From a candidate division WOR-3 bacterium UBA2202 (lineage in GTDB: Bacteria > Hydrothermota > 32-111), in contig DCUY01000104.1 of NCBI GenBank assembly GCA_002327905.1, forward strand, positions 7,904 through 71,903: a DNA stretch of 64,000 nucleotides, read 5' to 3'. A program made the translations under genes and the position numbers. Positions 26,067 through 36,970 of the stretch are shown piece by piece. The notes under the pieces were generated by a model. The model was not told the origin of the DNA and did no database searches. It was given only the letters and a program-made list of their open reading frames with translations. The stretch's first letter is position 1. Each line of letters starts with the position of its first letter.

Positions 26067-27191
26067 ATGAAGAAACTTGATATATTGCTTGTCTCTGACC
26101 CTTATTATCCTTACCCTTCGGGAATCTCCGAATATACATTTTATCTGGCAAAATACCTGAGGAAATTCGGAAATAATGTAACTGTGCTGACAACACATTA
26201 CAAAAACGAAATTGAAGATGACCATGTTATCAGATTCGGAAGAGTTCTGATGATTCCAATGAACAGGTCATACGCGACAATGTCTTTCGGGCTTGATATA
26301 CCTGCGAAGGTGAAGAATCTGCTTCATAATAATCATTATGATATAATTCATCTTAACGGACCCTTTCCTCCGTCAATTTCATTCTTTGCACTTCATTATT
26401 CAAAATCAGTCAATATATCCGCATTCCTCAATGCCGGATTCTCTTTCAATTCTACAGGGGCATCAATTGCAAAATTCCTGTACGGGAAATATCTGAAAAA
26501 AATAGATGGGCTTTTTGCCATATCTGAAACGGCAAAGAAGGCTATGGAGCCGTATTTTCCCGGAGAGTATGCGATTATTCCCGCAGGAGTGGATACTGAA
26601 GTCTTCAATCCGGATGTTAAAGAAAGAAATGATTTGAGAGAGGGATACCCGAGAGTTCTCTTTCTCGGACGGCTTGACGAAAGAAAAGGCGTGATTGTAA
26701 TGATAAATGCTTTCAAGAGTCTTTTGAAATTAAAACCCAAGGCACAGCTTGTTATAGCTGGAAAGGGACCTCTTGACAATGAAGCGCGCAATTTGGCAAA
26801 GCACTTGAAAATAGAGGACTCTGTCGAATTCAAAGGATTCATTCCTTTCGGAGAGATTCCGTCATACTATAAATCTACGGACATTTACTGCTCACCGGCT
26901 TTGGGCGGAGAGTCATTCGGAATAGTTCTTCTTGAGGCAATGGCAACAGGAACTCCGGTTATTGCATCAAACATCCACGGATACTCTCAGGTTGTCAAAG
27001 ATAATGAAAACGGGTTATTGTTTGAAACAGGAAATGAAGATGACATTGTGAAAAAGATAATTCAGATTGCAGACAATAAAGAATTGAGGGATAAGTGCAT
27101 AAAAAACGGTTTCATTCTTGCAGACAAATACTCATGGGAGAATGTGGCAAAACAGATTGAATCCTTCTATATATCCCGCCTTAAAAGGTAA
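26067..27191 (+). CDS. Glycosyltransferase family 4 (GT-B)
   Basis: GGESFGIVLLEAMATGTPVIASNIHGYSQVVKDNENGLLFE, an EX7E-type GT4 motif. Likely start is MKKLDILLVSDPYYPYPSGISEY at 26067. Confidence 0.8.
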   Translation: MKKLDILLVSDPYYPYPSGISEYTFYLAKYLRKFGNNVTVLTTHYKNEIEDDHVIRFGRVLMIPMNRSYATMSFGLDIPAKVKNLLHNNHYDIIHLNGPFPPSISFFALHYSKSVNISAFLNAGFSFNSTGASIAKFLYGKYLKKIDGLFAISETAKKAMEPYFPGEYAIIPAGVDTEVFNPDVKERNDLREGYPRVLFLGRLDERKGVIVMINAFKSLLKLKPKAQLVIAGKGPLDNEARNLAKHLKIEDSVEFKGFIPFGEIPSYYKSTDIYCSPALGGESFGIVLLEAMATGTPVIASNIHGYSQVVKDNENGLLFETGNEDDIVKKIIQIADNKELRDKCIKNGFILADKYSWENVAKQIESFYISRLKR

Positions 27192-27253
27192 ATACTATTC
27201 AAAATTTTATCGAAAACTGCTGACTATATAAGGCCCATTCAATTTGATGCATT

Positions 27254-27754
27254 TTAATGTTTTGCATTCGCAAGCATTTTTAGGGTATCATAATAACCAA
27301 AATATTTCTTTTCAAATTCTTCATAATCTTTTTTCTCAGTAATCCATATAATTGTGTAATATTCTTTTGCTCCGCTCCTCACCAATGCTTCAAATCTGTG
27401 GTTACCGTCATTTAGTTCAAATGTGTCATCGTAATACCCGATTATCAGAGGCGGAACATCCCATCCCTCTTCTATATCATTCTGCATCCTTGCCACTTTT
27501 TTTTCAAAACTTTCTGTATCAGTGCGAAATCTCATGTTCTCTTCAGTCCCGCAACACCTTTTAAAAAGATTTAGCGGCATCTTTACAGGATACATATAAT
27601 ATCTGTGTGTCAATTTTAAGCCCTTTGAGAATCCTTCATTACTCCCCTCACCCAAAAGAAATTCATGTATCCATTCTTCCAACTGTCCTTTATCCGCTCT
27701 CTCTATAGCATCCTTCAATGAAAACTCTTTCTGCATTTCTCTTCTCCTGACCAT
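27254..27754 (-). CDS. ParB/sulfiredoxin-like nuclease-domain protein
   Basis: ELNDGNHRFEA (DGxHR ParB N-terminal motif); 166 aa. First gene of the AT-rich island. Confidence 0.5.
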   Translation of the reverse strand: MVRRREMQKEFSLKDAIERADKGQLEEWIHEFLLGEGSNEGFSKGLKLTHRYYMYPVKMPLNLFKRCCGTEENMRFRTDTESFEKKVARMQNDIEEGWDVPPLIIGYYDDTFELNDGNHRFEALVRSGAKEYYTIIWITEKKDYEEFEKKYFGYYDTLKMLANAKH

Positions 27755-27862
27755 TATATAATGCGCATCTTGGAATATTACGAAACAATTTAAATAGTAA
27801 AAAAGTAAAGCGCCGAGATAACAGTTTTTTCATTTCGCTATGCGAAATACGACCTATTTATT

Positions 27863-28537
27863 TTATGGCTTCCTCATTATAAACAAATATTTAAAACCTC
27901 TTAAATAAAAATTAAACTGCCTTGCTCTGTTGTGCCAAACTCCCGTGTTTGACGTTTGATTGTGTCTTGTTAAACAAACAATATCCATTGGCTCAAAATG
28001 TTTTTCCAATCTTTGCCACATCAAAAATCCAACAGCCGTAAATTTCTTTTTAATCCATTGATCGGCAATAACCCAGCCCATAACTTTTCCGGGTTTCAAA
28101 ATTCTTGCAATTTCGGAAGCGGTCTTTTCCAATTCATCATAAAATTCTGTTTTCTCGCAAGAAATTTTACCGATACATTCCTTGTTGTCAGAATAGTTGA
28201 TATTGTCGGAGTATGGCGAATCAATAAAAACAAAATCAACAGAATTGTCCGCAAGCGGGATTTTCCGAGAATCGTTTTTAATTACATCGGGTCTAACAAT
28301 ATTCAAATCATAACCGATTACTTTTCGGTTCAATTCTTTTGCAACATCAATCGTTGTTCCGCTCCCGCACATCGGATCGACAACTAAATCACCTTCTTTG
28401 GTATATCTTTGGAGTAAATTCCAAATGACAAAAGCCGGCGTTACGCCATTGTATTTATTGTTTCCATGTGGCTTGTCGCCATAATTTTGTCTCGGAAAAT
28501 CCCAAAGTGTTGTTGATTCAATAATCAAGTCAGACAT
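27863..28537 (-). CDS. DNA (amino) methyltransferase, N6-adenine/N4-cytosine type, small
   Basis: DPMCGSGTT (motif I, FxGxG-like) followed by FVFIDSPYSD (motif IV, D/S-PP-Y-like); 224 aa. Confidence 0.7.
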   Translation of the reverse strand: MSDLIIESTTLWDFPRQNYGDKPHGNNKYNGVTPAFVIWNLLQRYTKEGDLVVDPMCGSGTTIDVAKELNRKVIGYDLNIVRPDVIKNDSRKIPLADNSVDFVFIDSPYSDNINYSDNKECIGKISCEKTEFYDELEKTASEIARILKPGKVMGWVIADQWIKKKFTAVGFLMWQRLEKHFEPMDIVCLTRHNQTSNTGVWHNRARQFNFYLRGFKYLFIMRKP

Positions 28538-28763
28538 ATTTTTTCATCTGCATGCGATAAAAATTTATAGTCTTTTTATAAACCATTTCATTGAAGACGG
28601 CGTTTTCGTCAGCTTCAATTTTATCCAATAAAACTTGGGCATATAATAGTAAATCACCAAGTTGTGATATGTTTTTATTTTTCAGTCGCCAGCCGAGTTT
28701 CGATCTTTCATGCGTTTCGCAGATTATTTTTCCCCATGCTTTTTGCAATTGTTTTTTAGTCAT
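28530..28763 (-). CDS. Hypothetical small protein within R-M locus
   Basis: 77-aa ORF packed between the MTase and REase remnants; no recognisable motif. Confidence 0.3.
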   Translation of the reverse strand: MTKKQLQKAWGKIICETHERSKLGWRLKNKNISQLGDLLLYAQVLLDKIEADENAVFNEMVYKKTINFYRMQMKKYV

Positions 28764-28768
28764 ATTTT

Positions 28769-29438
28769 TTATTTTAATAATTTTTTCAAATCATCAATAA
28801 ATTTATCAAACATTTTTACTTTGTCGCTTTCTTCAATGTCGGTCTCGCTCAAAACATAACTTCCGTCTGTGTCAACTTCAACAATTGCTCTGCCTTTCTT
28901 TGCAGGTCTTTTAACTGTTAGTGTCCCATCCTCATCAGGCGTTACAAAATAAACTTTGATATGCTTTGTCGCTTCGTCAGAGGCAAGTTTAATTTTCCAA
29001 TATCCCGTTTGTGCAATTCTTTCCCGCAAAGTTACTTTGCTTGATAAAACAGCAACAACTTTGCTTGTTTTTTGGATCATAAATAATCAAATCAACATCT
29101 GGCAAATGCGAGCCAAACTCGCCATAATCAATAAGTAAATTTCTTTTAACTATACTCAATTCTTTTGAAAGGTTTGATCCATTCGTCCTTTCAAGGCTGT
29201 TGCCATTTACTACTTGCAAGCCGAGGGCATTAACCTCGTCCGTTATGATGTATTCAATCAATTTCTCTAAATTTTTACCTTTGAAAGCGCGCCATGATTG
29301 CTCGTGGTCTTTGCCGGTAAAATCTTTTTTGTGCAATTCCTTTGCTTCTTTCAAAACATTTGAAATATGGCGATATGCTTGCAGTCCATATTTTTTCTTT
29401 TTTGTTTCGTAGATTTTGATAAGGTCGTCTATAGTCAT
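28769..29438 (-). pseudogene. Frameshifted Type II restriction endonuclease candidate (two overlapping ORFs, 28989..29438 and 28769..29080)
   Basis: The frame switches at an A-rich run (ccaaaaaacaagcaaag, about 29065..29080). The fused reading gives ...GSHLPDVDLIIYDPKNKQ|VVAVLSSKVTLRER..., resembling a PD-(D/E)xK core. The position between two MTases and a C-protein is typical for the REase. Confidence 0.45.
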
Positions 29439-29442
29439 AGTT

Positions 29443-30714
29443 TTATTTTTCCATTATCAAAATGTATTCTGTTGGATAAACAGAAACTCTATTTTTATTA
29501 TTTATGCTCGCAAATTTACCCGTCTTTTCGTCTCGAACGGACGGCAAATTTTTTGATGGGATTTCTCTTTTGATAATATCGGCGATTTTTAATCCCAAAT
29601 TTTGTAATTGCTCAACAAAAACCTCCGCATTAAGTATTTCAACGCCTTTTAAGCTCGTATTGCCAATAACAATGCAGGCTTTCCCACCTTTCTTTAATAT
29701 TCTTTTCATCTCACTAAACACTTGATTCATTTCACTAAAATATGTCGAAACTTCCTCGGCAGTTTTTTTATCTTTTTTTAGCAATTCTGTTCTGATATTT
29801 TCTGCAATCAAACTGTTGAGAAATAAATCTTTTTTACAATGATACGAAGTTCCAATAAAACGTTTTCGAAAATCACTTAAGTCATTAGTGTATTCTAACC
29901 ACAATGCAGTGAGCTGGTGTAAGTCGGCGTATTCGTAAGAGGTTACATAAGGAGGCGAAGTGACAATCAAACTAACGCTATTATCTTTTGCCGGAATTGT
30001 TCTTGCATCCGTGCAAATTACCTTGCTCGGAATTTTCAAATAACCTTTTTCTGATAACAATTCAAATAATCGTGCGTTGCCTCGCAACATCATTTTTATT
30101 TGTTTCAAAAATGTTTTAATCGGCTCCGATGGTTTTTTTTCAAAATCTCTCGTCGGTTTATTGCTTTTTTGTAGCCAGATTGAGCAATTTTTGAGAATGT
30201 TTGAAAATCCGCAGAAAAAGAAATCTTGGACATCTTGATCTTTTATTTTTGAAATCTCAGCAAAAATAAAGGCGAGTTTTCTTTTTTCTTCTGGCCTAAA
30301 CCAATAGTCAATTCTTTCGTGTTCGGGGGTTTTTACTTTTGTTTTTTCGCTGTAAGCTTCCAATTTCTTTTGAAAAATTGTAAATTCCTTTTCAATTTTA
30401 ACAGGATCAATCGCCGTGATTTTTGCTTTTGTAATTAAAACAGCGACTGGGTTAATATCAACGGCAATTGATGGCCGTCCCATAATTTTTGATTCAACAA
30501 GAGTTGTTCCGCAACCGCCGAACGGATCAACAATAAAATCACCTGCTCGTGTATATTTTTCCACCAAGCGAGAAACTATTTGCGGAATAAATTTTGCTGG
30601 ATAACGATGATAACCATGCGTAATATATGCCGTATCTTTCCTCGTTTTATCAGAAAACGCCCACGAGGGATCGATTTTTGTTTTATTCAATAATGAAGTA
30701 ATAGTCAGACTCAT
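29443..30714 (-). CDS. DNA (amino) methyltransferase, alpha-class architecture
   Basis: HRYPAKFIPQIV...DFIVDPFGGCGTT (AdoMet motif I) near the N-terminus; LIVTSPPYVTSYEY (motif IV, SPPY) about 180 aa later; 423 aa. Confidence 0.8.
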   Translation of the reverse strand: MSLTITSLLNKTKIDPSWAFSDKTRKDTAYITHGYHRYPAKFIPQIVSRLVEKYTRAGDFIVDPFGGCGTTLVESKIMGRPSIAVDINPVAVLITKAKITAIDPVKIEKEFTIFQKKLEAYSEKTKVKTPEHERIDYWFRPEEKRKLAFIFAEISKIKDQDVQDFFFCGFSNILKNCSIWLQKSNKPTRDFEKKPSEPIKTFLKQIKMMLRGNARLFELLSEKGYLKIPSKVICTDARTIPAKDNSVSLIVTSPPYVTSYEYADLHQLTALWLEYTNDLSDFRKRFIGTSYHCKKDLFLNSLIAENIRTELLKKDKKTAEEVSTYFSEMNQVFSEMKRILKKGGKACIVIGNTSLKGVEILNAEVFVEQLQNLGLKIADIIKREIPSKNLPSVRDEKTGKFASINNKNRVSVYPTEYILIMEK

Positions 30715-30716
30715 AT

Positions 30717-30935
30717 TTATTTTTTGATTAAGTCGTTCACTTTTACATCTAATGCTTGGGCAATTTTTGTTAGTGTTTCAAAAGTTGGATTTGGATTCAA
30801 GCTATATTCTACTGTAACAATAGTATTCAGCGACAAATCAGCCAGCTTGGACAAACGATTCTGAAAAATACCTTTTTTCTGCCTTACCTTTTTAAGGTTT
30901 TTTCCTATTGTTGATTTAGAATTATTGTTTGACAT
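30717..30935 (-). CDS. XRE-family HTH protein (R-M controller C-protein candidate)
   Basis: 72 aa; LSKLADLSLNTIVTVEYSLNPNPTFETLTKIAQALDV helix-turn-helix. First gene of the R-M operon behind a strong promoter. Confidence 0.65.
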   Translation of the reverse strand: MSNNNSKSTIGKNLKKVRQKKGIFQNRLSKLADLSLNTIVTVEYSLNPNPTFETLTKIAQALDVKVNDLIKK

Positions 30936-30960
30936 AGTTTTAATTAAAATATATTATTAT

Positions 30961-30989
30961 ATTGTATTGGATAATGGCTCCCTTGTCAA
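30961..30989 (-). promoter_or_regulatory. Sigma70-type promoter of the C-protein/MTase operon
   Basis: Minus strand: TCTTGACAAGGGA (-35 at 30989..30984) - 17 nt - TACAAT (30966..30961). Confidence 0.5.
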
Positions 30990-31135
30990 GACACAAGATT
31001 GGCTTTCTATACTACCAACGCTGTCGAATCCTTCAACTCAGTCCTCGAACACATTCGCCGGCAAAAGGGCAGATTCTTTCAATCCGAAGACATCTTCTTC
31101 ATCAATATTTACATCCGTTATCTGAATATGTTGCC

Positions 31136-31807
31136 TTAATGGAAAATCGGTGTAGTAAATGAAATATCACTTCCATAATTTGTTCCCGAACTGTTTGTCG
31201 CCACTATAATGTAATGATATGTAACACCAGAAGTAAGTTCAGTTAAACTAAAATTAACTGACACTGTATCTATTCCACTGCCAACTGACGTGTTCGTTGT
31301 TATGTTCCCATAATTCGTTGTCATTCCCCACATAAAACAATATGTAGTTGACAATCCATTCGGATTAACTGTCCCGTTTAATTGAGCAGTGCTTGTTGTA
31401 ACATGCGTCGCTGATTGAGTTGTCACTGTTGGTGGAACTGCTACAGTTGTAAATGTAAGAGCCTCTCCATAACTTATTCCAACACTGTTTTCTGCAACTA
31501 AACGATACTGATATGTAGTGCTTGGACTTAAGGAAGATATAATACTCATAACATCTATCTCTTCAGAACCAGAACCAGCGGATTCTTTTTCAGTAGAAAA
31601 TGAATAATCTGATATGCCATATATGCCATATTCAAAATGGTACAGAGTTGCCAGCTCGTTTGGATTTACCCTCCCATGTAAAATTGAGCTATTTGAAGTA
31701 ATTGAAGTGGCTGATTCTGATACTACAGTTGGTGCAATTTTCGTTGTTGTAGTACAAGAAATTAAAATTAAAGCTATAACAAAAATAACAATTCCTTTTC
31801 TTTTCAT
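31136..31807 (-). CDS. Lipoprotein with two tandem fibronectin-III-like roughly 95-aa repeats
   Basis: Lipobox ALILISC. Internal duplication: SATSITSNSSILHGRVNPNELATLYHFEYG...TTYQYRLVAENSVGISYGEALTFTT versus SATHVTTSTAQLNGTVNPNGLSTTYCFMWG...VTYHYIIVATNSSGTNYGSDISFTT. Confidence 0.6.
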   Translation of the reverse strand: MKRKGIVIFVIALILISCTTTTKIAPTVVSESATSITSNSSILHGRVNPNELATLYHFEYGIYGISDYSFSTEKESAGSGSEEIDVMSIISSLSPSTTYQYRLVAENSVGISYGEALTFTTVAVPPTVTTQSATHVTTSTAQLNGTVNPNGLSTTYCFMWGMTTNYGNITTNTSVGSGIDTVSVNFSLTELTSGVTYHYIIVATNSSGTNYGSDISFTTPIFH

Positions 31808-31859
31808 AGTTTCTCCTTTTTTTAAATTAAATTTAATACTTTTTCTTTTATTTGATTAA

Positions 31860-31888
31860 ATTATATGAGATGATGAATCCCTTGTCAA
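31860..31888 (-). promoter_or_regulatory. Sigma70-type promoter of the lipoprotein gene
   Basis: Minus strand: TCTTGACAAGGGA (-35 at 31888..31883) - 17 nt - TATAAT (31865..31860). SD AGGAG at 31813..31817. The 22-bp block around the -35 is a near-exact copy of the block at 30975..30996. Confidence 0.55.
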
Positions 31889-31919
31889 GACTCAAGATTT
31901 TGAAAAAATGTGTAAATTG

Positions 31920-32290
31920 TTAAGCTGTATGAGTATTTGTGATACCTCCATAAACTTCAGATAAAGTCCTGTATCCCAATGACTGATGTTTTCTTCTGTT
32001 GTTATAGTATCCAAAGTAATCTTTTAACCCTCTTCTAAGCTCTTTAATAGTATCAAACCTCCCGTATTCCACAGATAGTTTCTGCAATGTCTTCTCATCA
32101 CTTATCGCCTCCAACGCCACCCTGTCTTAAACTCTGAACCGTGTCTCTTGTAATTCATTTCCGACCTCCTTTTTTAACATATTCTATCACTAAATCGTGT
32201 CTCATTTCGAGAGACCATTATATTAATCAATTCATCTTTAGTCATTTTCCTCAAATCCGAATATGATTTTGACATAGAGATACTCCTTTA
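31920..32290 (-). mobile_element. IS3-family insertion sequence remnant (transposase C-terminal fragment plus possible OrfA N-terminal fragment)
   Basis: The 66-aa ORF ends ...LKDYFGYYNNRRKHQSLGYRTLSEVY, the conserved C-terminal tail of IS3/rve-family OrfB. A 34-aa ORF at 32182..32286 (MSKSYSDLRKMTKDELINIMV...) may be an OrfA remnant. No intact transposase is present. Confidence 0.5.
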
Positions 32291-32324
32291 TCTATTATGT
32301 TTAACTAAAATCTAAATTCTCTGA

Positions 32325-33065
32325 TTACTTTCCGATATAGGAATAAATTGGTTCCGATTTCACCGGATAATCGTTATATATTTTCCCCTCAAGGAGTTTT
32401 CCGGTCTTATGCTTATTAAATCCACCCCATTGTTTAAAGAAAAATGGTATGCTCTCTTTTTCACTCATATCTCTTAGCTTCAAAACCCATTCTTCCTTTA
32501 TGGGTCTTGCGCCCGCCCCTGATTCTCCTCCAACGATAACCCAATCAATGCCCTTCAAGGATATCCGCCCTATGGGTCCAAGAAGGGGTTCAAAAGATAT
32601 AAATTTGATTTTTGAATCTATCTCTTTCAATTCTTTTATGCGATATACATATTCATTCATTTCAACAGTTACACCCATCCAAATATTGTCAGACCAATTT
32701 AATTTATCATTTAATTCAAGCAATCTCTCAGAACGCTTTGTTAATATCTGAAACTGAATGTGCTTACAGTCATTCATAACATTGAAGACTTCTTTAATGT
32801 AGCTTAAAGGAATATCCTTGTGAAACAAATCGGACATCGAGTTTACAAAAACTCTTCTTGGAGATTTCCATGTATAAGGTGCTTTTAAAGCATTCCTTTG
32901 CAGTGTCACTTTAAATCCGTTTTTGTATTGTTTTACACCCATCCTTTGCAGACGAAAGGCGAACTTCTCGGCATAGCAGTTCATACATCCCGGACTGATT
33001 TTTGTGCAGCCCGTTACAGGATTCCAGCTCATCTCTGTCCATTCGATCTTAGTTTTTCCTGACAT
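32325..33065 (-). CDS. DUF5131 (phage Gp37/Gp68 family) three-Cys-motif protein
   Basis: N-terminus KTKIEWTEMSWNPVTGCTKISPGCMNCYA (CX6CX2C) as I recall it for PF07505; 246 aa. Confidence 0.6.
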   Translation of the reverse strand: MSGKTKIEWTEMSWNPVTGCTKISPGCMNCYAEKFAFRLQRMGVKQYKNGFKVTLQRNALKAPYTWKSPRRVFVNSMSDLFHKDIPLSYIKEVFNVMNDCKHIQFQILTKRSERLLELNDKLNWSDNIWMGVTVEMNEYVYRIKELKEIDSKIKFISFEPLLGPIGRISLKGIDWVIVGGESGAGARPIKEEWVLKLRDMSEKESIPFFFKQWGGFNKHKTGKLLEGKIYNDYPVKSEPIYSYIGK

Positions 33066-33932
33066 TTATCTCCTTTTTTCCATTCCATTTATCAAAGACT
33101 GTGCTATTGGTATTGCAGTTTTCGCACCTTTAGAATTACCCGCAGCAAAACATAATAAATAGATAGGACTATTTTTACTATTATAGAATATTTTGGGATT
33201 TTCTACAACCCCTGCAAATTCCTTTTTCAGTTTTCTGGATAAATATGTAATAACATTCTTATAATTGGTTCTTCCTATATTTTCAGTCTTTCCAAATAGA
33301 GTTTCTTCTTCCTCAATTTGATAGAATTCTTGTTCCCATTCATTGTCACCAAATAATTCATTCAGTTTTTTTCTGTTGCCCTCTTCAATTTCACCATCTT
33401 TTTTCAGAAGTCGCATAGCACCAATCCCTAGTGGGAAGAAATACCACATGTCAATTGCTTTTGTTTGTGCAATGGCTTTTATTGTTTCCCACTTAACCTG
33501 CATTCCAAAGGGATCAAGAAACAAAACCGCTCTATATTTTTTCCAATCATAATTATGGCAAATGTCCGTTACTGCTTTATTAGCATCATCTTTTTTTATT
33601 TCATAAGTTACAGAATATTTTTTCACTTCCAATTCCAATTCTTTACATAGTTCAGAATCATTTTCGATAAAAATATATTTATTGAATTTGGTTTCCAATT
33701 CAAGAGCTTTTATAACTGATCCTTTTGAGTATTCGGTAAACTCGTCATTGAATAGCAATTGCTCATCTGATTCACTATAAATTTTCCCACATCCAGCAAA
33801 AGCATCAATATAAATTGTTTCAAAATACTTAGCTCCTTCATTTGTGGTAAATATTTTCATATAGGTTTTTAAATATTTTTCAAGTATTTCAAGTTTTTGT
33901 TGAGTCCAATTTCCTCCCCATAACTGTTCCAT
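33066..33932 (-). CDS. Partner protein of the three-Cys-motif protein (TcmP-like, TIGR04474 candidate)
   Basis: Stop/start abuts the DUF5131 gene (33065/33066). N-terminus WTQQKLEILEKYLKTYMKIF...IYIDAFAGCGKI is MTase-motif-I-like; 288 aa. Assignment rests on gene pairing plus my recollection of the family. Confidence 0.4.
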   Translation of the reverse strand: MEQLWGGNWTQQKLEILEKYLKTYMKIFTTNEGAKYFETIYIDAFAGCGKIYSESDEQLLFNDEFTEYSKGSVIKALELETKFNKYIFIENDSELCKELELEVKKYSVTYEIKKDDANKAVTDICHNYDWKKYRAVLFLDPFGMQVKWETIKAIAQTKAIDMWYFFPLGIGAMRLLKKDGEIEEGNRKKLNELFGDNEWEQEFYQIEEEETLFGKTENIGRTNYKNVITYLSRKLKKEFAGVVENPKIFYNSKNSPIYLLCFAAGNSKGAKTAIPIAQSLINGMEKRR

Positions 33933-34168
33933 TTTGAAGCTCCTTAAATTAAAGATTTTTTCACTACACCCTCTTGGTCATGCATTTCAGAAAACAACCT
34001 TAAACTTCTGTTCCTTCGTCCATTCTCTGAGTACCATTTCCGCCTCCTATTTTTCCCCGCTCTCGTTAAGAAAATCTCGTTTTCCTTAACAGAAATTATA
34101 CTACTTTTCTTAACTCTTGTTAAGCGGACTCAGTATAATCAGTATAATTAGAGATCACCTCTAAATTT

Positions 34169-34684
34169 TCATTCATATAAGTAAACAAAAAAAATAGTGC
34201 CTAATATTATTAACACTGCAGTTCCATAAGATAGACTCTTAATGTATTCATCTCTCATTTCTTTTTTCTTTTCCAGTTCAGCCAATCTCTCATCTAATGC
34301 TTTCCTGACTGCCAAATTATTGATTGTTACTATTTTTCTATCTCCTTCAGCAATAAATATGTCATAAGTTCCTACCCGAATTATTTCATTTAGAGCATCT
34401 CTATTGAGAGTATTAAACACAATTTCATATTGAGGATTCAAATTTAAATACTCACGAAACAATTCTCTCTTAATGTCGTATGTTTTCCAATTAAACATGC
34501 TGATTGTATAAGTGCCTGTGCCTAAATTCTTCAATTTAATTGTATCTGAACTGATGATTTTTACTAAACCTTCATTAACAAAGATTGGGCAGGAATCATA
34601 GGGATCTTCCAGTTTAATCCATAATTCTGTTGAAAAAGCTAAATTTGATAATAAGATTATAGTACACGCAATAAACCACTTCAT
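34169..34684 (-). CDS. Hypothetical exported protein with C-terminal TM anchor
   Basis: N-terminal signal-like MKWFIACTIILLSNLAFS; C-terminal hydrophobic TAVLIILGTIFFVYLY. Confidence 0.35.
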   Translation of the reverse strand: MKWFIACTIILLSNLAFSTELWIKLEDPYDSCPIFVNEGLVKIISSDTIKLKNLGTGTYTISMFNWKTYDIKRELFREYLNLNPQYEIVFNTLNRDALNEIIRVGTYDIFIAEGDRKIVTINNLAVRKALDERLAELEKKKEMRDEYIKSLSYGTAVLIILGTIFFVYLYE

Positions 34685-35533
34685 TTATTTCTCCTTAATA
34701 ATTTCTGTTTCAATTTTGCCTATAAAGCTTGATGTTTCATTTTTCTCTGTCTTTATTTGATTATTTTCTTTTTTTGCTTTGGCATCTAATTTTCTCTTGT
34801 AAGATTTATTAAGTTTATTTATGGTTCTCTTTACTTTGCCGACCTTATCTCCTTCAAATATCTCCCTTTTTAGAACTTCATTAAGTAAAATATTCTTAAT
34901 TTCTTCATTTGTAACTTTTATCTCGGGCGACATTTTTCTGATGTTTTTCCTAATTACATTCAGGACATCATCAGTTAAAACTATTTGCCCGACAGAAAAT
35001 TTATTTAGAATCTTCTTTTGCATATGAAACTCCTCAAGACACGATTTTGACAGACTTTCTTTACATAAATAAAACAATAACTCCAAATCATCATCTTTTT
35101 TGTAATTCAATTTCAGTAAATCGATCTCATAGAGTAATTCATTGCTAACTGGCTGTCCAAAAGTAACTTTATAAATCTTCCAATTTATACCATTTGTTAA
35201 TATAATCCATTCTATTCCTGCATTTGCCCCATAGTCTAAAGCTTGTCTGATATGATCATTTTTCAGGTCCAATCCAATTGCTTTTGCTTCTACTAAAAAT
35301 TTCACTTTTCCATCAATTCTAAGCGCCAAATCACAAAATGTTTTTTTCACTGAGAATTCAGAAGTTATCTCTGAATATTTATCATAGCCTAATATTTCAT
35401 TCAAAATATCAGCTATTATAACAACAGTATCTGATTCATTAATATCTTTTGACTTTGCTGAAATTAAAATCGTTTGGAATTTCTTTACTCCCTCAATCAA
35501 TCTTTCTTTAATTTTAGCTGTTATCTTCGTCAT
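34685..35533 (-). CDS. PD-(D/E)xK nuclease-fold protein, HsdR_N-like (COG4748-like) standalone
   Basis: DLALRIDGKVKFLVEAKAIG (D...EAK) and QALDYGANAGIEWIILTNGINWKIY, reminiscent of the type I R-subunit N-terminal / Mrr-like nuclease domain; 282 aa. Confidence 0.4.
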   Translation of the reverse strand: MTKITAKIKERLIEGVKKFQTILISAKSKDINESDTVVIIADILNEILGYDKYSEITSEFSVKKTFCDLALRIDGKVKFLVEAKAIGLDLKNDHIRQALDYGANAGIEWIILTNGINWKIYKVTFGQPVSNELLYEIDLLKLNYKKDDDLELLFYLCKESLSKSCLEEFHMQKKILNKFSVGQIVLTDDVLNVIRKNIRKMSPEIKVTNEEIKNILLNEVLKREIFEGDKVGKVKRTINKLNKSYKRKLDAKAKKENNQIKTEKNETSSFIGKIETEIIKEK

Positions 35534-36212
35534 TTTCGACCTCCCTGTTTTCTTTTTGATTTTTTACGAACTTAACAATTATTCCTGCGAATTCTGCGGT
35601 CAACATTGAAAACAATCCCATACCGGTTAATACTAATATTGCCGCCATTATCCTGCCGCTAGTAGTAACCGGATAGATATCTCCATATCCAACTGTAGTG
35701 AGTGTTGTAAAACTCATCCATAAAGCATCTTCAAAACTATTCATTGAATTATTAAAACCCTTTTCAAATGTATACAAGCCCACACTACAATAGAAATAAA
35801 TAATTACTGTCAAACTTGCATAAATAGAAAAAAGCGATCTTGCAGGATTTGCCAATAGAATTCTCATTATTGGTAAAGCTCCTTTCAGACCTCTAATGAT
35901 TTTAAATGCTCTGAATATTCTGACAACTCTGAATATTCGTAAAGGCCTCAATAATTGCACATATGGAATTGATGATATCAAATCAAAAAAACGAGTTACT
36001 ATATAATTTTTTTTATCTTTTGCTTTAAACAGAAACAAAAACCAATCAGAAAGAAAAATAATACAAATTAGTAAGTCAATCCAATTTAAAATAGTAATAA
36101 TATTTTCAGGCACATTTAAAATGACTTCTAATACCAACTCTATAAGAACATAAACACTAAGGATTAAAATAAAATAATTATATTTTTTTAGAAAATTGTT
36201 TTTAATTTTCAT
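35514..36212 (-). CDS. Voltage-gated potassium channel (6TM Kv-like)
   Basis: Selectivity filter TTLTTVGYGDIYP; S4-like arginine ladder RPLRIFRVVRIFRAFKIIRGLK; 232 aa. Confidence 0.75.
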   Translation of the reverse strand: MKIKNNFLKKYNYFILILSVYVLIELVLEVILNVPENIITILNWIDLLICIIFLSDWFLFLFKAKDKKNYIVTRFFDLISSIPYVQLLRPLRIFRVVRIFRAFKIIRGLKGALPIMRILLANPARSLFSIYASLTVIIYFYCSVGLYTFEKGFNNSMNSFEDALWMSFTTLTTVGYGDIYPVTTSGRIMAAILVLTGMGLFSMLTAEFAGIIVKFVKNQKENREVENDEDNS

Positions 36213-36298
36213 ACACTTCTTTCCTCCATAATTGCTTATCCTTTTTTATAATTATATCCCTAAATAATTAAAAAATCAATATTCAAAGTTAAAAAACA

Positions 36299-36970
36299 TC
36301 AACGGATGAATAGCGTCAATCCACCCTGAATGCCATAAATGAAAGTTTCAGGTTTGCCTAAGTTGGTTCCTGCTTTTATAGTCAAATACGGCATAATATG
36401 AAGCCCTTTGAAAATTCTTATTTCAGTTGCAACTTGCCCTGCAAGGGATATCATTTTCAAATAATTGCTGTATTCATATCCGTTATCTACATAGTCAATA
36501 CCGAGTATGAGTCTTGATGTAATACCGCTTCTGCTACCGGGACTTGACGAGTAGTGATTTAATGAGGCGTAAAGACCTTTTGTGTCAATCCGAGATAATG
36601 AAATTTGCAAACCAATACTTGTTTGAGATATCTTGTTTTCATACATTTTTATTCTTTTTGTCACTCCTAAAGACAATTGCAGAGGATAATAATTAAAAAA
36701 TCCAACACCGATATTTGCATTGAATCCGTTTGCAAAACCGCACCTTAGAAAAGCATGCATTGGATTAATCCACGGATAAGTATAGAAAGCACCTTCAGAG
36801 GCTACGATTCCAATATTTGATCCGACAGCAAATTCACATTTATTTTTTTCAAGAGTCTTTGCTGAAAAATAATATTGAGAGCACCCTGCAGATATTATGG
36901 ATACTGCAAAAACAATTATTAAAATAATGCCTTTTTTTCTTAAATTCATCTTCCTGAAAAACATAAACAA
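36299..36970 (-). CDS. Lipoprotein / outer-membrane beta-barrel-like hypothetical protein
   Basis: Signal plus lipobox IISAGC; alternating amphipathic strands; C-terminal GGLTLFIR. Confidence 0.35.
   Translation of the reverse strand: MFMFFRKMNLRKKGIILIIVFAVSIISAGCSQYYFSAKTLEKNKCEFAVGSNIGIVASEGAFYTYPWINPMHAFLRCGFANGFNANIGVGFFNYYPLQLSLGVTKRIKMYENKISQTSIGLQISLSRIDTKGLYASLNHYSSSPGSRSGITSRLILGIDYVDNGYEYSNYLKMISLAGQVATEIRIFKGLHIMPYLTIKAGTNLGKPETFIYGIQGGLTLFIR

What the first reader, a model, noticed from the sequence alone, without database searches (positions are those of the whole stretch)
28769..30935. Type II R-M locus with two MTases and a restriction gene inactivated by a 1-nt frameshift in an A-run
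Gene order (minus strand) is C-protein, alpha-class amino-MTase (SPPY), REase candidate, 77-aa ORF, small amino-MTase (SPY).

The REase candidate is split into two overlapping ORFs. The frames meet at ccaaaaaacaagcaaag (about 29065..29080). The fused product reads ...GSHLPDVDLIIYDPKNKQ|VVAVLSSKVTLRER..., a plausible PD-(D/E)xK core.

Two MTases plus one REase recalls the DpnII/MboI and LlaDCHI (GATC) systems and Type IIS systems.

A dead nuclease with live MTases means the cell keeps the methylation pattern without restriction. It could also be a reversible, phase-variable R-M switch, or a sequencing error.
Basis: partly seen in the sequence, partly recalled or inferred. Interest (0 to 1): 0.5.

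Follow-up and report, generated by a model that had tools for sequence, protein, structure and literature searches.

The report
Restriction gene broken by one extra A
This is a real restriction-modification gene cluster whose DNA-cutting gene was recently knocked out by one extra A while both protective methylase genes stayed intact, which is a common and well-known way for such systems to decay.

Summary
On the minus strand lie a C-type regulator, a 423-aa amino-methyltransferase (M1), a split restriction gene, a 77-aa ORF and a 224-aa methyltransferase (M2).

Deleting one A from the A6 run (window 29068-29073) gives a 222-aa protein. It matches Pfam RE_BsaWI (E 1.7e-34) and is 88-96% identical to thousands of intact 222-aa proteins. 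Its model (pLDDT 95.7) matches only CCGG-family enzymes at E <= 1e-3: PfoI, BsaWI, PspGI and AgeI.

Intact relatives read CCA AAA ACA (A5), so the lesion is a +1 A insertion.

It is not a sequencing error. The same broken allele occurs in 12 separate samples, on contigs that match the window at every called base.

It does not behave as a phase switch. The intact A5 allele occurs only on three sister-strain contigs (99.7-99.8% identical) that share their own SNPs. The tract is short. None of 67 other cassette copies is broken.

The GATC/DpnII comparison is not supported; a CCGG or CCNGG core is likelier.

Verdict: a recent, fixed loss of restriction in one candidate-division WOR-3 clone. It is an ordinary event in a known enzyme family.

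Side observations: the M1-R-M2 cassette is spread across bacteria and archaea, and its R-M2 junction holds varied defence genes.

The parts
30961..30989 (-). Promoter-like site (TTGACA, 17 nt, TACAAT; 11 of 12 matches) upstream of the C gene. It is the likely start of a C-M1-R-orf77-M2 operon.
   Evidence: It is a consensus match only. It lies in a 51-nt element that is repeated at 31849-31899.
30717..30935 (-). C (controller) protein candidate: a 72-aa Cro/C1-type HTH protein.
   Evidence: Pfam HTH_26 1.4e-8 and HTH_3 1.3e-7. PADLOC 'Control_protein' 2.1e-7. A homologue is present in only 12 of 80 related loci.
29443..30714 (-). M1: an intact 423-aa N6/N4 amino-methyltransferase. Motif I (DPFGGCGTT) comes first, then about 190 aa, then motif IV (TSPPY). 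This is the alpha order, and the SPPY motif suggests m4C.
   Evidence: Pfam N6_N4_Mtase 4.2e-22. PADLOC MTase_II 3e-59. A cluster member is named cytosine-N4-specific by UniRef. It aligns full length, at 46-94% identity, in related loci.
28769..29438 (-). Restriction endonuclease pseudogene of the BsaWI / CCGG family. Its natural length is 222 aa, now split into a 149-aa ORF and a 103-aa ORF.
29068..29073 (-). A6 run (T6 on the plus strand) carrying the +1 insertion. Intact alleles have A5 (CCA AAA ACA).
28989..28991 (-). Premature TAA stop. It ends the N-terminal fragment after 123 native and 26 out-of-frame residues.
28530..28763 (-). orf77: a 77-aa ORF of unknown function in the variable R-M2 slot. 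Its end overlaps the M2 start by 8 nt.
   Evidence: No hit in Pfam, NCBIfam, PADLOC or PHROGs. Homologues at 44-61% identity were found in 3 of 80 genome loci, and two further ones were seen by eye in L132 and L170.
27863..28537 (-). M2: an intact 224-aa N6/N4 amino-methyltransferase. Motif I (DPMCGSGTT) is followed closely by motif IV (DSPY), with no large internal target-recognition domain.
   Evidence: Pfam N6_N4_Mtase 1.2e-23. PADLOC MTase_II 3.2e-30. It is 67-98% identical in related loci. It differs from the sister strains only by synonymous changes.

Best explanation
The locus is a C-protein-associated Type II restriction-modification operon (C, M1, R, orf77, M2). It was acquired horizontally by a candidate-division WOR-3 bacterium and sits in a low-GC defence island.

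The nuclease is a 222-aa PD-(D/E)XK enzyme of the CCGG family, which includes BsaWI, AgeI, PfoI and PspGI. In this clone a single A was inserted by replication slippage into an A5 run (CCA AAA ACA became CCA AAA AAC A).

The insertion falls after Lys123. That places Glu58 and Asp114 on one fragment, and the catalytic Lys134 and the CCGG-reading Arg138-Glu139-Arg140 motif on the other. The N-terminal product therefore ends after 26 wrong residues, and the cell has lost restriction.

Both methyltransferase genes are intact, so the genome presumably stays methylated. This is the expected order of decay, because losing the methylase first would be lethal while the nuclease still works.

Shown here: the lesion, its polarity (an insertion), its presence in independent assemblies, its linkage to one haplotype, and the family and fold of the enzyme.

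Inferred, not shown: loss of cutting activity, continued methylation, the recognition sequence (a CCGG or CCNGG core) and the m4C chemistry.
For: Repair and family:
- Deleting one A restores a 222-aa protein that matches the family consensus DPKTSKVVAVLSSKVTLRER exactly.
- It hits Pfam RE_BsaWI at E 1.7e-34 across the shift point.
- Family profiles hit only BsaWI 4ZSF in the PDB, at E 9.7e-5 and then 3.8e-7.
- In that alignment E58, D114, K134 and R138-E139-R140 line up with BsaWI E92, D145, K165 and R169-D170-R171. The BsaWI paper names those residues as the active site and the CCGG reader (PMC4652773).
- The AlphaFold model has pLDDT 95.7. Its five matches at E <= 1e-3 are all CCGG-family enzymes: two PfoI entries, BsaWI, PspGI and AgeI.

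Polarity of the lesion:
- Intact relatives carry A5 at this site.

The allele is real:
- The exact 149-aa fragment is on 23-25 contigs. Loci were fetched from 12 samples assembled by JGI, Logan and ENA, and they match the window at every called base, apart from 4 SNPs about 5 kb outside the locus in one contig.
- The window holds 210 homopolymer runs of 6 or more bases, and no other long gene is broken.

A single recent event:
- The exact repaired protein exists on 3 contigs in the same gene context, 99.7-99.8% identical to the window.
- In those contigs the only difference inside R is A5 versus A6. All three also share SNPs at 27547, 27532, 27518 and 26972.
- Changes in M1 and M2 between the two haplotypes are synonymous, except C293S at a variable M1 position.

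The pattern recurs:
- An unrelated groundwater lineage lost R through a 19-nt deletion and also kept M1 and M2.
Against: - No read-level data were available, so a minority A5 subpopulation inside the 'OFF' samples cannot be excluded.
- One OFF contig (L082) has N at the positions where the sister haplotype differs. Both strains therefore co-occur in at least one sample.
- Only three ON contigs exist, so the haplotype linkage rests on a small sample.
- The 12 samples may come from related oil-sands or hydrocarbon enrichment cultures. They are independent as sequencing and assembly runs, but not necessarily as populations.
- R carries no second mutation, so continued use through rare frameshifting cannot be ruled out from sequence alone.
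- The BsaWI second acidic residue D175 aligns with Thr144 here, so the full active site is not mapped.
Confidence: 0.85

Rival explanations
1. The A run is a contingency tract. The restriction gene switches ON and OFF reversibly by slipped-strand mispairing (A5 to A6 and back), giving a phase-variable R-M system.
For: Both A5 (ON) and A6 (OFF) alleles exist in very close relatives, in related sample sets. The change is a single-unit homopolymer length change. R shows no further decay. The same genome does carry a long, length-variable poly-C tract in a surface-protein gene.
Against: The tract has only 5 or 6 units. The H. pylori methylome paper (PMC3936762) considers switching likely for repeats longer than 8 bp. 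ON and OFF are perfectly linked to different SNP haplotypes: OFF contigs from 12 samples match the window at every called base in and around the locus, and 3 ON contigs share four SNPs. All 62 genome loci whose site was read have the run at A5 or shorter, often broken by synonymous changes. No frameshift was found in 67 of 67 assessable M2-anchored copies. The other broken lineage used a different lesion at a different site.
Confidence: 0.06
2. The extra A is a sequencing or assembly error, and the gene is intact in the organism.
For: Homopolymer indels are a common error type.
Against: The identical allele was assembled from 12 samples by three pipelines. The same pipelines assembled A5 in the sister strains. 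The other 209 runs of 6 or more bases leave the window's long genes intact.
Confidence: 0.02
3. The A6 allele is still expressed at a low level. A +1 ribosomal slip of tRNA-Lys on AAA-AAC, or transcriptional slippage that drops one A, would give an attenuated, 'leaky' restriction enzyme.
For: On an A6 run a P-site tRNA-Lys can re-pair fully in the +1 frame (read directly from the sequence). R has no second lesion. The operon keeps a strong promoter-like site.
Against: No stimulatory element was found, and the following codon (AAC) is not a stop or a known slow codon. Six A's are well below the run lengths known to give efficient transcriptional slippage (general knowledge). The state is not conserved, because every relative examined at this site encodes the protein in one frame. 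The lack of further decay is explained by the event being recent: zero other changes in 669 bp, against 4-12 SNPs in the surrounding 3-4 kb.
Confidence: 0.05
4. The system is a DpnII/MboI-like GATC system or a Type IIS system, as the two methylases suggested to the first reader.
For: Two amino-MTases flank one nuclease, as in DpnII (DpnM plus the single-strand methylase DpnA). BcnI is an analogous system that also has a single-strand methylase (PMC3573125).
Against: The nuclease has no DpnII-family hit. Instead it matches RE_BsaWI, the BsaWI sequence and CCGG-family folds. The D12 (Dam) Pfam model scores 16.1 bits on M1, below its 22-bit cut-off, and does not hit M2. The 222-aa enzyme resembles Type IIP/IIF enzymes and has no separate cleavage domain.
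Confidence: 0.02

Closest known systems
BsaWI (W^CCGGW) and the CCGG family of Type II restriction endonucleases (PfoI, AgeI, PspGI, Kpn2I, SgrAI, NgoMIV, Bse634I)
   Same: It matches the Pfam RE_BsaWI domain over the full model. BsaWI 4ZSF is the only significant PDB sequence hit. The matches at E <= 1e-3 are PfoI (TM 0.67-0.71), BsaWI, PspGI and AgeI (TM 0.60). Like BsaWI it has an N-terminal helical part followed by a catalytic alpha/beta core (PMC4652773). The Glu, Pro-Asp and Lys residues and the contiguous R-(D/E)-R motif four residues after the Lys are conserved.
   Different: It is shorter: 222 aa against 258-312 aa for its five best structural matches. Sequence identity to them is only 12-20%. 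The position of the BsaWI second acidic residue D175 is Thr144. The residue aligned with BsaWI K85, which reads the outer base pair, is Ala51, so the flanking specificity probably differs. The recognition sequence is unknown. This copy is frameshifted.
Two-methylase Type II systems: DpnII (DpnM plus DpnA) and BcnI
   Same: One nuclease gene is kept together with two amino-methyltransferase genes of different architecture. The M1-R-M2 trio has the same order in about 74 of 80 genome loci. In DpnII the second enzyme methylates single-stranded DNA, and BcnI is an analogous system that also has a single-strand methylase (PMC3573125).
   Different: The nuclease family is unrelated to DpnII. The role of M2 (single-strand methylation, the second strand or a second position) is untested. 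M2 here is a minimal 224-aa enzyme with motif I before motif IV.
C-protein-controlled R-M operons (PvuII, BamHI and Kpn2I types)
   Same: A small Cro/C1-type HTH gene lies immediately upstream and is co-directional. It hits the PADLOC 'control protein' models.
   Different: No C-box operator could be identified in the window. The regulator is present in only 12 of 80 related cassettes and is diverse, at 34-78% identity. It is therefore an optional add-on.
Frameshift-inactivated or phase-variable R-M genes of Helicobacter pylori and other host-adapted bacteria
   Same: A homopolymer indel knocks out an R-M gene (PMC3936762).
   Different: Those tracts are typically longer than 8 bp and vary within strains. 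This one is A5/A6 and is fixed in one clone, with no sign of switching.

Membership tests
BsaWI / CCGG-family PD-(D/E)XK restriction endonucleases | Significant match to Pfam PF18643 (RE_BsaWI) above its gathering score | tested here: met
   118.4 bits against a cut-off of 26.2, E 1.7e-34, model positions 2-105 of 105, residues 92-196 of the repaired protein.
BsaWI / CCGG-family PD-(D/E)XK restriction endonucleases | Sequence-profile relationship to a solved family member | tested here: met
   Family profiles hit BsaWI 4ZSF_A as the only significant PDB chain, at E 9.7e-5 (26 sequences) and 3.8e-7 (68 sequences). The single sequence and a shallow profile found nothing.
BsaWI / CCGG-family PD-(D/E)XK restriction endonucleases | Fold similarity to CCGG-family structures | tested here: met
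   The model has pLDDT 95.7 and pTM 0.90. The Foldseek matches at E <= 1e-3 are two PfoI entries, BsaWI, PspGI and AgeI, all at probability 1.00; Kpn2I and SgrAI follow.
BsaWI / CCGG-family PD-(D/E)XK restriction endonucleases | Catalytic Glu, Pro-Asp and Lys residues | tested here: met
   E58, P113-D114 and K134 align with BsaWI E92, D145 and K165 (residue roles from PMC4652773). They are invariant in the 26-sequence alignment; in the 68-sequence alignment P113, D114 and K134 are at least 90% conserved.
BsaWI / CCGG-family PD-(D/E)XK restriction endonucleases | R-(D/E)-R motif that reads CCGG, placed just after the catalytic Lys | tested here: met
   K134-VTL-R138-E139-R140 has the same spacing as BsaWI K165-x3-R169-D170-R171.
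BsaWI / CCGG-family PD-(D/E)XK restriction endonucleases | Second acidic residue on the helix after the motif (D175 in BsaWI, E201 in NgoMIV) | tested here: not met
   The aligned position is Thr144 (Thr or Ser across the family). Other invariant acidic residues (D116, D168, E169, E187) may substitute, but this was not resolved.
BsaWI / CCGG-family PD-(D/E)XK restriction endonucleases | Cleavage at a CCGG- or CCNGG-containing site | not testable with these tools
   Palindrome-avoidance statistics for the window and for 567 kb of host flanks gave no specific signal.
C-protein-regulated Type II R-M | Small HTH regulator gene upstream of, and co-oriented with, the R-M genes | tested here: met
   A 72-aa HTH_26/HTH_3 protein ends 2 nt before M1. 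It hits the PADLOC Control_protein model at 2.1e-7.
C-protein-regulated Type II R-M | Conserved C-box operator in the promoter | tested here: inconclusive
   Some relatives (L009, L011, L017) show GACTC/AGTCC-like elements. The window and L001 instead share a CTTGT...ACAAG repeat over the -35 box, which also occurs in front of an unrelated gene.
Phase-variable (contingency) R-M locus | Hypermutable repeat tract, typically longer than 8 units | tested here: not met
   The tract is A6, and A5 when intact. The threshold is from PMC3936762.
Phase-variable (contingency) R-M locus | Both tract lengths found on the same strain background | tested here: not met
   The OFF contigs match the window at every called base. 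The ON contigs all carry four shared SNPs. Read-level mixtures were not testable.
Phase-variable (contingency) R-M locus | Recurrent length variation at the tract among relatives | tested here: not met
   None of 67 assessable M2-anchored copies is broken. All 62 genome loci whose site was read have A5 or an interrupted run. The second broken lineage carries a 19-nt deletion elsewhere in the gene.
DpnII / MboI / LlaDCHI-type GATC systems | Nuclease of the DpnII family and a Dam-type (D12 class) methylase | tested here: not met
   There is no DpnII-family hit for R. MethyltransfD12 scores 16.1 bits on M1, below its 22-bit cut-off, and does not hit M2.
DpnII / MboI / LlaDCHI-type GATC systems | Second methylase acting on single-stranded DNA | not testable with these tools
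   This would need a biochemical assay of M2.

The most novel reading that the evidence does not exclude
The M1-R-M2 unit may be a self-contained R-M cassette that moves across domains and carries an internal cargo slot.

- Its DNA is 82-92% identical across candidate-phyla-radiation bacteria, many other bacterial phyla and archaea.
- Homology to the window ends almost exactly at the M1 start and the M2 stop.
- The R-M2 junction is either closed, or holds small unknown ORFs such as orf77, or holds 0.5-2.3 kb of other defence-type genes: HNH nucleases, an OLD-family nuclease, a Z1/ResIII helicase, Schlafen/AlbA_2, a metallo-beta-lactamase-fold protein and a trypsin-like protease.

Cargo placed there would sit between a live nuclease gene and a methylase gene that cannot be lost, so it would be stabilised by the cassette's addiction property. 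On this reading the WOR-3 copy, with a freshly broken R, shows the first step of release from that addiction.
Probability: 0.3. Interest if true: 0.55.

Novelty: new member of a known kind. Interest (0 to 1): 0.3.

Why it matters
For the finding itself the value is mainly in annotation. It fixes the correct repair and product of a pseudogene. It assigns the enzyme to the CCGG family rather than to a GATC system. It also shows, from public assemblies alone, that the frameshift is a genuine clonal mutation and neither an error nor a switch.

The locus gives a naturally matched pair of strains, one R-intact and one R-dead, with both methylases live, in the same kind of hydrocarbon-degrading community. 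Such a pair could be used to ask whether losing restriction changes gene uptake or phage pressure in an uncultured phylum.

The wider cassette may deserve its own study as a vehicle for defence genes. It is very highly conserved, occurs in bacteria and archaea, and has a variable internal slot.

Tried and rejected
- A single-sequence search and a shallow 15-sequence profile against the PDB found nothing relevant. Only more diverse profiles reached BsaWI.
- The first AlphaFold run, on the shallow alignment, was unusable at pLDDT 51. The third attempt, using hits from the representative-library search, succeeded.
- I tried to infer the recognition site from palindrome avoidance in the 64-kb window and in 567 kb of flanks from cassette-bearing contigs. 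CCGG, NCCGGN and CCWGG are no more depleted than several unrelated palindromes, so this was inconclusive.
- A scan of viral contigs with M2 returned only remote methylases at 27-32% identity, so there is no sign that the cassette is phage-borne.
- PDB searches with M1 and M2 matched only the SAM-binding motif of m4C and m6A enzymes. Base and site specificity remain unresolved.
- A search for a C-box operator was inconclusive.
- orf77 and the downstream 166-aa protein have no hit in Pfam, NCBIfam, PADLOC or PHROGs. The 166-aa gene is absent from the 80 genome loci screened, so I do not count it as part of the system.
- A literature search for 'BsaWI family', PF18643 or RE_BsaWI found no paper.
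Full report
**1. What is in the sequence**

ORFs on the minus strand of window 27.2-31.0 kb are:
- a 72-aa HTH protein, 30935-30717;
- a 423-aa methyltransferase M1, 30714-29443;
- two overlapping ORFs of 149 aa (29438-28989) and 103 aa (29080-28769);
- a 77-aa ORF, 28763-28530;
- a 224-aa methyltransferase M2, 28537-27863.

Gaps between genes are 2-5 nt, or the genes overlap, so this reads as one operon. A promoter-like site with 11 of 12 consensus matches lies at 30989-30961.

The two nuclease ORFs meet at CCAAAAAACAAGC. The A6 run is the plus-strand T6 at 29068-29073. Deleting one A gives a continuous 222-aa protein.

**2. Is the repair right?**

Yes. The repaired protein hits Pfam RE_BsaWI at E 1.7e-34 over the whole 105-position model, residues 92-196. 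The match therefore runs straight across the shift at residue 123/124.

A database search gave 4009 homologues. All 120 listed are 221-235 aa long (117 of them 222 aa) and 88-96% identical. Their consensus around the site, DPKTSKVVAVLSSKVTLRER, is exactly the repaired reading.

At the DNA level, intact relatives read CCA AAA ACA or synonymous variants. None of the 62 genome loci whose site was read has more than five A's there. The window therefore carries a +1 A insertion, A5 to A6.

**3. What the enzyme is**

- A profile of 26 family members hits BsaWI (PDB 4ZSF) as the only significant PDB chain, at E 9.7e-5. A 68-sequence profile improves this to 3.8e-7.
- In that alignment E58, D114 and K134 fall on BsaWI E92, D145 and K165. 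R138-E139-R140 falls on R169-D170-R171.
- The BsaWI structure paper identifies these as active-site residues and as the R-(D/E)R motif that reads CCGG (PMC4652773). They are invariant in the 26-sequence family alignment.
- The BsaWI second acidic residue D175 aligns with Thr144, so that part of the active site differs or lies elsewhere.
- With the deep alignment the AlphaFold model reached pLDDT 95.7 and pTM 0.90.
- Its five Foldseek matches at E <= 1e-3 in the PDB are all CCGG-family enzymes: two PfoI entries, BsaWI, PspGI and AgeI. Kpn2I and SgrAI follow.

The nuclease is therefore a short member of the CCGG/CCNGG family, not a DpnII-type GATC enzyme.

The frameshift separates E58 and D114 from K134 and the RER motif. 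The N-terminal product, with 123 native and 26 wrong residues, cannot be an active nuclease.

**4. The methylases**

Both are N6_N4 amino-methyltransferases.
- M1 has motif I first, then about 190 aa, then TSPPY. A close cluster member is named cytosine-N4-specific by UniRef.
- M2 has motif I, then DSPY about 50 residues later, with no large internal domain.
- Both align full length to their homologues.

Neither base nor site specificity could be established.

**5. Error, switch or mutation?**

Error is excluded:
- The exact 149-aa fragment is indexed on 23-25 contigs.
- Loci were fetched from 12 samples: JGI 3300035454, 3300000558, 3300002220 and 3300001580; SRR1313284 and SRR1313287; SRR943329, SRR943331, SRR943333 and SRR943334; SRR5324133; and ERZ27315072.
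- These were assembled by three pipelines. They match the window at every called base in and around the locus; one contig has 4 SNPs about 5 kb away.
- The window has 210 homopolymer runs of 6 or more bases, yet its other long genes are intact.

The intact allele also exists:
- The exact repaired 222-aa sequence is in the collection.
- It sits on three contigs (ERZ27315034, SRR636597/ERZ922797 and JGI 3300002446) in the same gene context, including the chromosomal glycosyltransferase flank.
- These contigs are 99.7-99.8% identical to the window.
- Inside R the only difference is A5 versus A6. Outside R all three share SNPs at 27547, 27532, 27518 and 26972.

ON and OFF are thus perfectly linked to haplotype: OFF in 12 samples and ON in 3. 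This fits one mutational event in a clone that then became common. It does not fit frequent switching.

One OFF contig has N at the sister-haplotype SNP positions, so the two strains co-occur in that sample.

Differences in M1 and M2 between the haplotypes are synonymous, except M1 C293S. That position is N, S or another residue in relatives.

**6. How common is a broken R in this cassette?**

I anchored on M2 rather than R to avoid bias. Of the 80 best metagenome loci:
- 59 carry an intact close R;
- 8 carry an intact divergent R of 227-231 aa;
- 0 of these 67 assessable copies are broken;
- the remaining 13 are cut by contig ends or lack upstream sequence.

Fragment clusters revealed one other broken lineage, from groundwater samples. 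It has a 19-nt deletion between AAAAGAA repeats, with M1 (423 aa) and M2 (225 aa) intact.

Loss of R with retention of both M genes therefore recurs, but it is rare and arises through different lesions.

**7. Context**

Neighbouring housekeeping proteins match candidate division WOR-3 bacterium records exactly. The window also holds a cell-division and cell-wall gene cluster with FtsI, Mur ligase and FtsA.

The R-M operon lies in a low-GC stretch (29-36%, against 38-41% in the flanks). That stretch also contains transposase remnants, a TcmP/DUF5131 pair that matches the PADLOC candidate system PDC-M41, and an HSDR_N-like protein. It is a small defence island.

**8. The cassette at large**

The M1-R-M2 trio occurs in the same order in about 74 of the 80 best genome loci. 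A total of 373 species genomes hold a relative of R. Hosts include many Patescibacteria lineages, Ignavibacteria, Elusimicrobiota, Omnitrophota, Leptospiria, Anaerolineae, Altarchaeum, Woesearchaeota, Pacearchaeota and a complete Methanosarcinales genome.

DNA identity to the window is 82-92% in the five closest loci I read out. Homology stops at the M1 start (about 30700) and the M2 stop (about 27860). The C gene is shared by only a minority of loci.

The R-M2 junction varies:
- 44 of 72 loci have the two genes adjacent;
- 13 have an insert of about 250-290 bp, most with an ORF of 77-95 aa;
- 15 have 0.5-2.3 kb of co-oriented cargo.

The cargo includes HNH nucleases, an OLD-family AAA_15+TOPRIM protein, a Z1+ResIII helicase, Schlafen/AlbA_2, a metallo-beta-lactamase-fold protein and a trypsin-like protease. 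In the window that slot holds orf77.

**9. Mechanism and comparison**

The best-supported account is as follows. A horizontally acquired, CCGG-family, two-methylase Type II system suffered a replication-slippage insertion of one A in its nuclease gene. This removed restriction and left methylation in place.

This is the classical, safe order of R-M decay, and it parallels the many frameshifted R-M genes of Helicobacter (PMC3936762).

Two-methylase organisation is known from DpnII, where DpnA methylates single-stranded DNA. BcnI is described as an analogous system with a single-strand methylase (PMC3573125). Whether M2 plays such a role here is only an analogy.

**10. Verdict**

Sequencing error is refuted, phase variation is unlikely, and the GATC analogy is not supported.

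The finding is a new member of a known kind and of modest interest. The more unusual material is the side observation on the cassette's cross-domain spread and its internal cargo slot.

Noticed in passing
window 20122-20135 (G14 on the plus strand, C14 on the minus strand), in the 5' end of the gene at 17195-20185 (minus): A 14-nt poly-C tract sits just after a Shine-Dalgarno-preceded ATG (20160) of a 970-996-aa protein with a Por_Secre_tail domain, probably a surface protein. With C14 that start runs into a TAG after 19 codons. With C15 or C12 it would join the signal peptide MLVLAGLMLLSLLPIGNLQA. An otherwise identical contig from another sample has G11, and a third contig breaks inside the tract. 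This looks like a genuine contingency tract, unlike the A6 in the R gene.
   Followed up: partly
R-M2 junction: window 28530-28768; relatives L001, L003, L005, L006, L015, L016, L019, L024, L025, L033, L036, L041, L053, L061: The junction between R and M2 of the conserved cassette is a variable slot. It is closed in 44 of 72 loci and holds an insert of about 250-290 bp in 13, most with an ORF of 77-95 aa. In 15 it holds 0.5-2.3 kb of co-oriented defence-type genes: HNH, OLD-family AAA_15+TOPRIM, Z1+ResIII, Schlafen/AlbA_2, metallo-beta-lactamase fold and Trypsin_2.
   Followed up: partly
window 27863-30714 compared with L001-L080 and L110-L189: The M1-R-M2 cassette occurs in many bacterial phyla and several archaeal lineages. 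R is 74-96% identical at the protein level, and DNA is 82-92% identical in the closest loci. Homology ends at the M1 start and the M2 stop. M1 falls into two types (about 70-94% and about 46-54% identity) paired with similar R and M2, which suggests modular exchange.
   Followed up: partly
L102-L109 (groundwater metagenome contigs): A second, independent inactivation of the same nuclease gene: a 19-nt deletion between AAAAGAA direct repeats, with M1 and M2 intact. It was seen in at least 8 contigs from different samples.
   Followed up: yes
protein P0206 (one 954-bp Logan contig): A 112-aa variant reads MTINDLIKIYETK directly joined to TSKVVAV..., an in-frame loss of residues 14-123. It could be a third kind of R inactivation or an assembly artefact.
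   Followed up: no
window 32325-33932 (minus): A three-Cys-motif partner protein (TcmP, 288 aa) and a DUF5131 protein (246 aa) form a pair. They match the PADLOC candidate defence system PDC-M41 A and B at E 3.9e-103 and 2e-113. An HSDR_N-like 282-aa protein follows at 34685-35533.
   Followed up: partly
window 30950-31000 and 31849-31899: A 51-nt direct repeat (80% identical) carries a near-consensus TTGACA-17-TATAAT promoter on the minus strand. One copy lies in front of the C gene and the other in front of an unrelated fibronectin-like 223-aa gene. Each lies next to a transposase remnant: an rve_3 fragment at 31920-32120 and, by eye, a transposase-like fragment at about 30962-31162.
   Followed up: no
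window 27254-27754 (minus): A 166-aa ORF lies just downstream of M2 and contains a DGNHR motif that, by eye, recalls ParB/sulfiredoxin-type proteins. No library hit was found. It is absent from the 80 genome loci screened. It carries most of the SNPs that separate the R-intact and R-broken strains, including two non-synonymous ones.
   Followed up: partly
window 27000-36500: GC content drops to 29-36% across the defence island, against 38-41% in the flanking housekeeping genes. This is consistent with horizontal acquisition.
   Followed up: no
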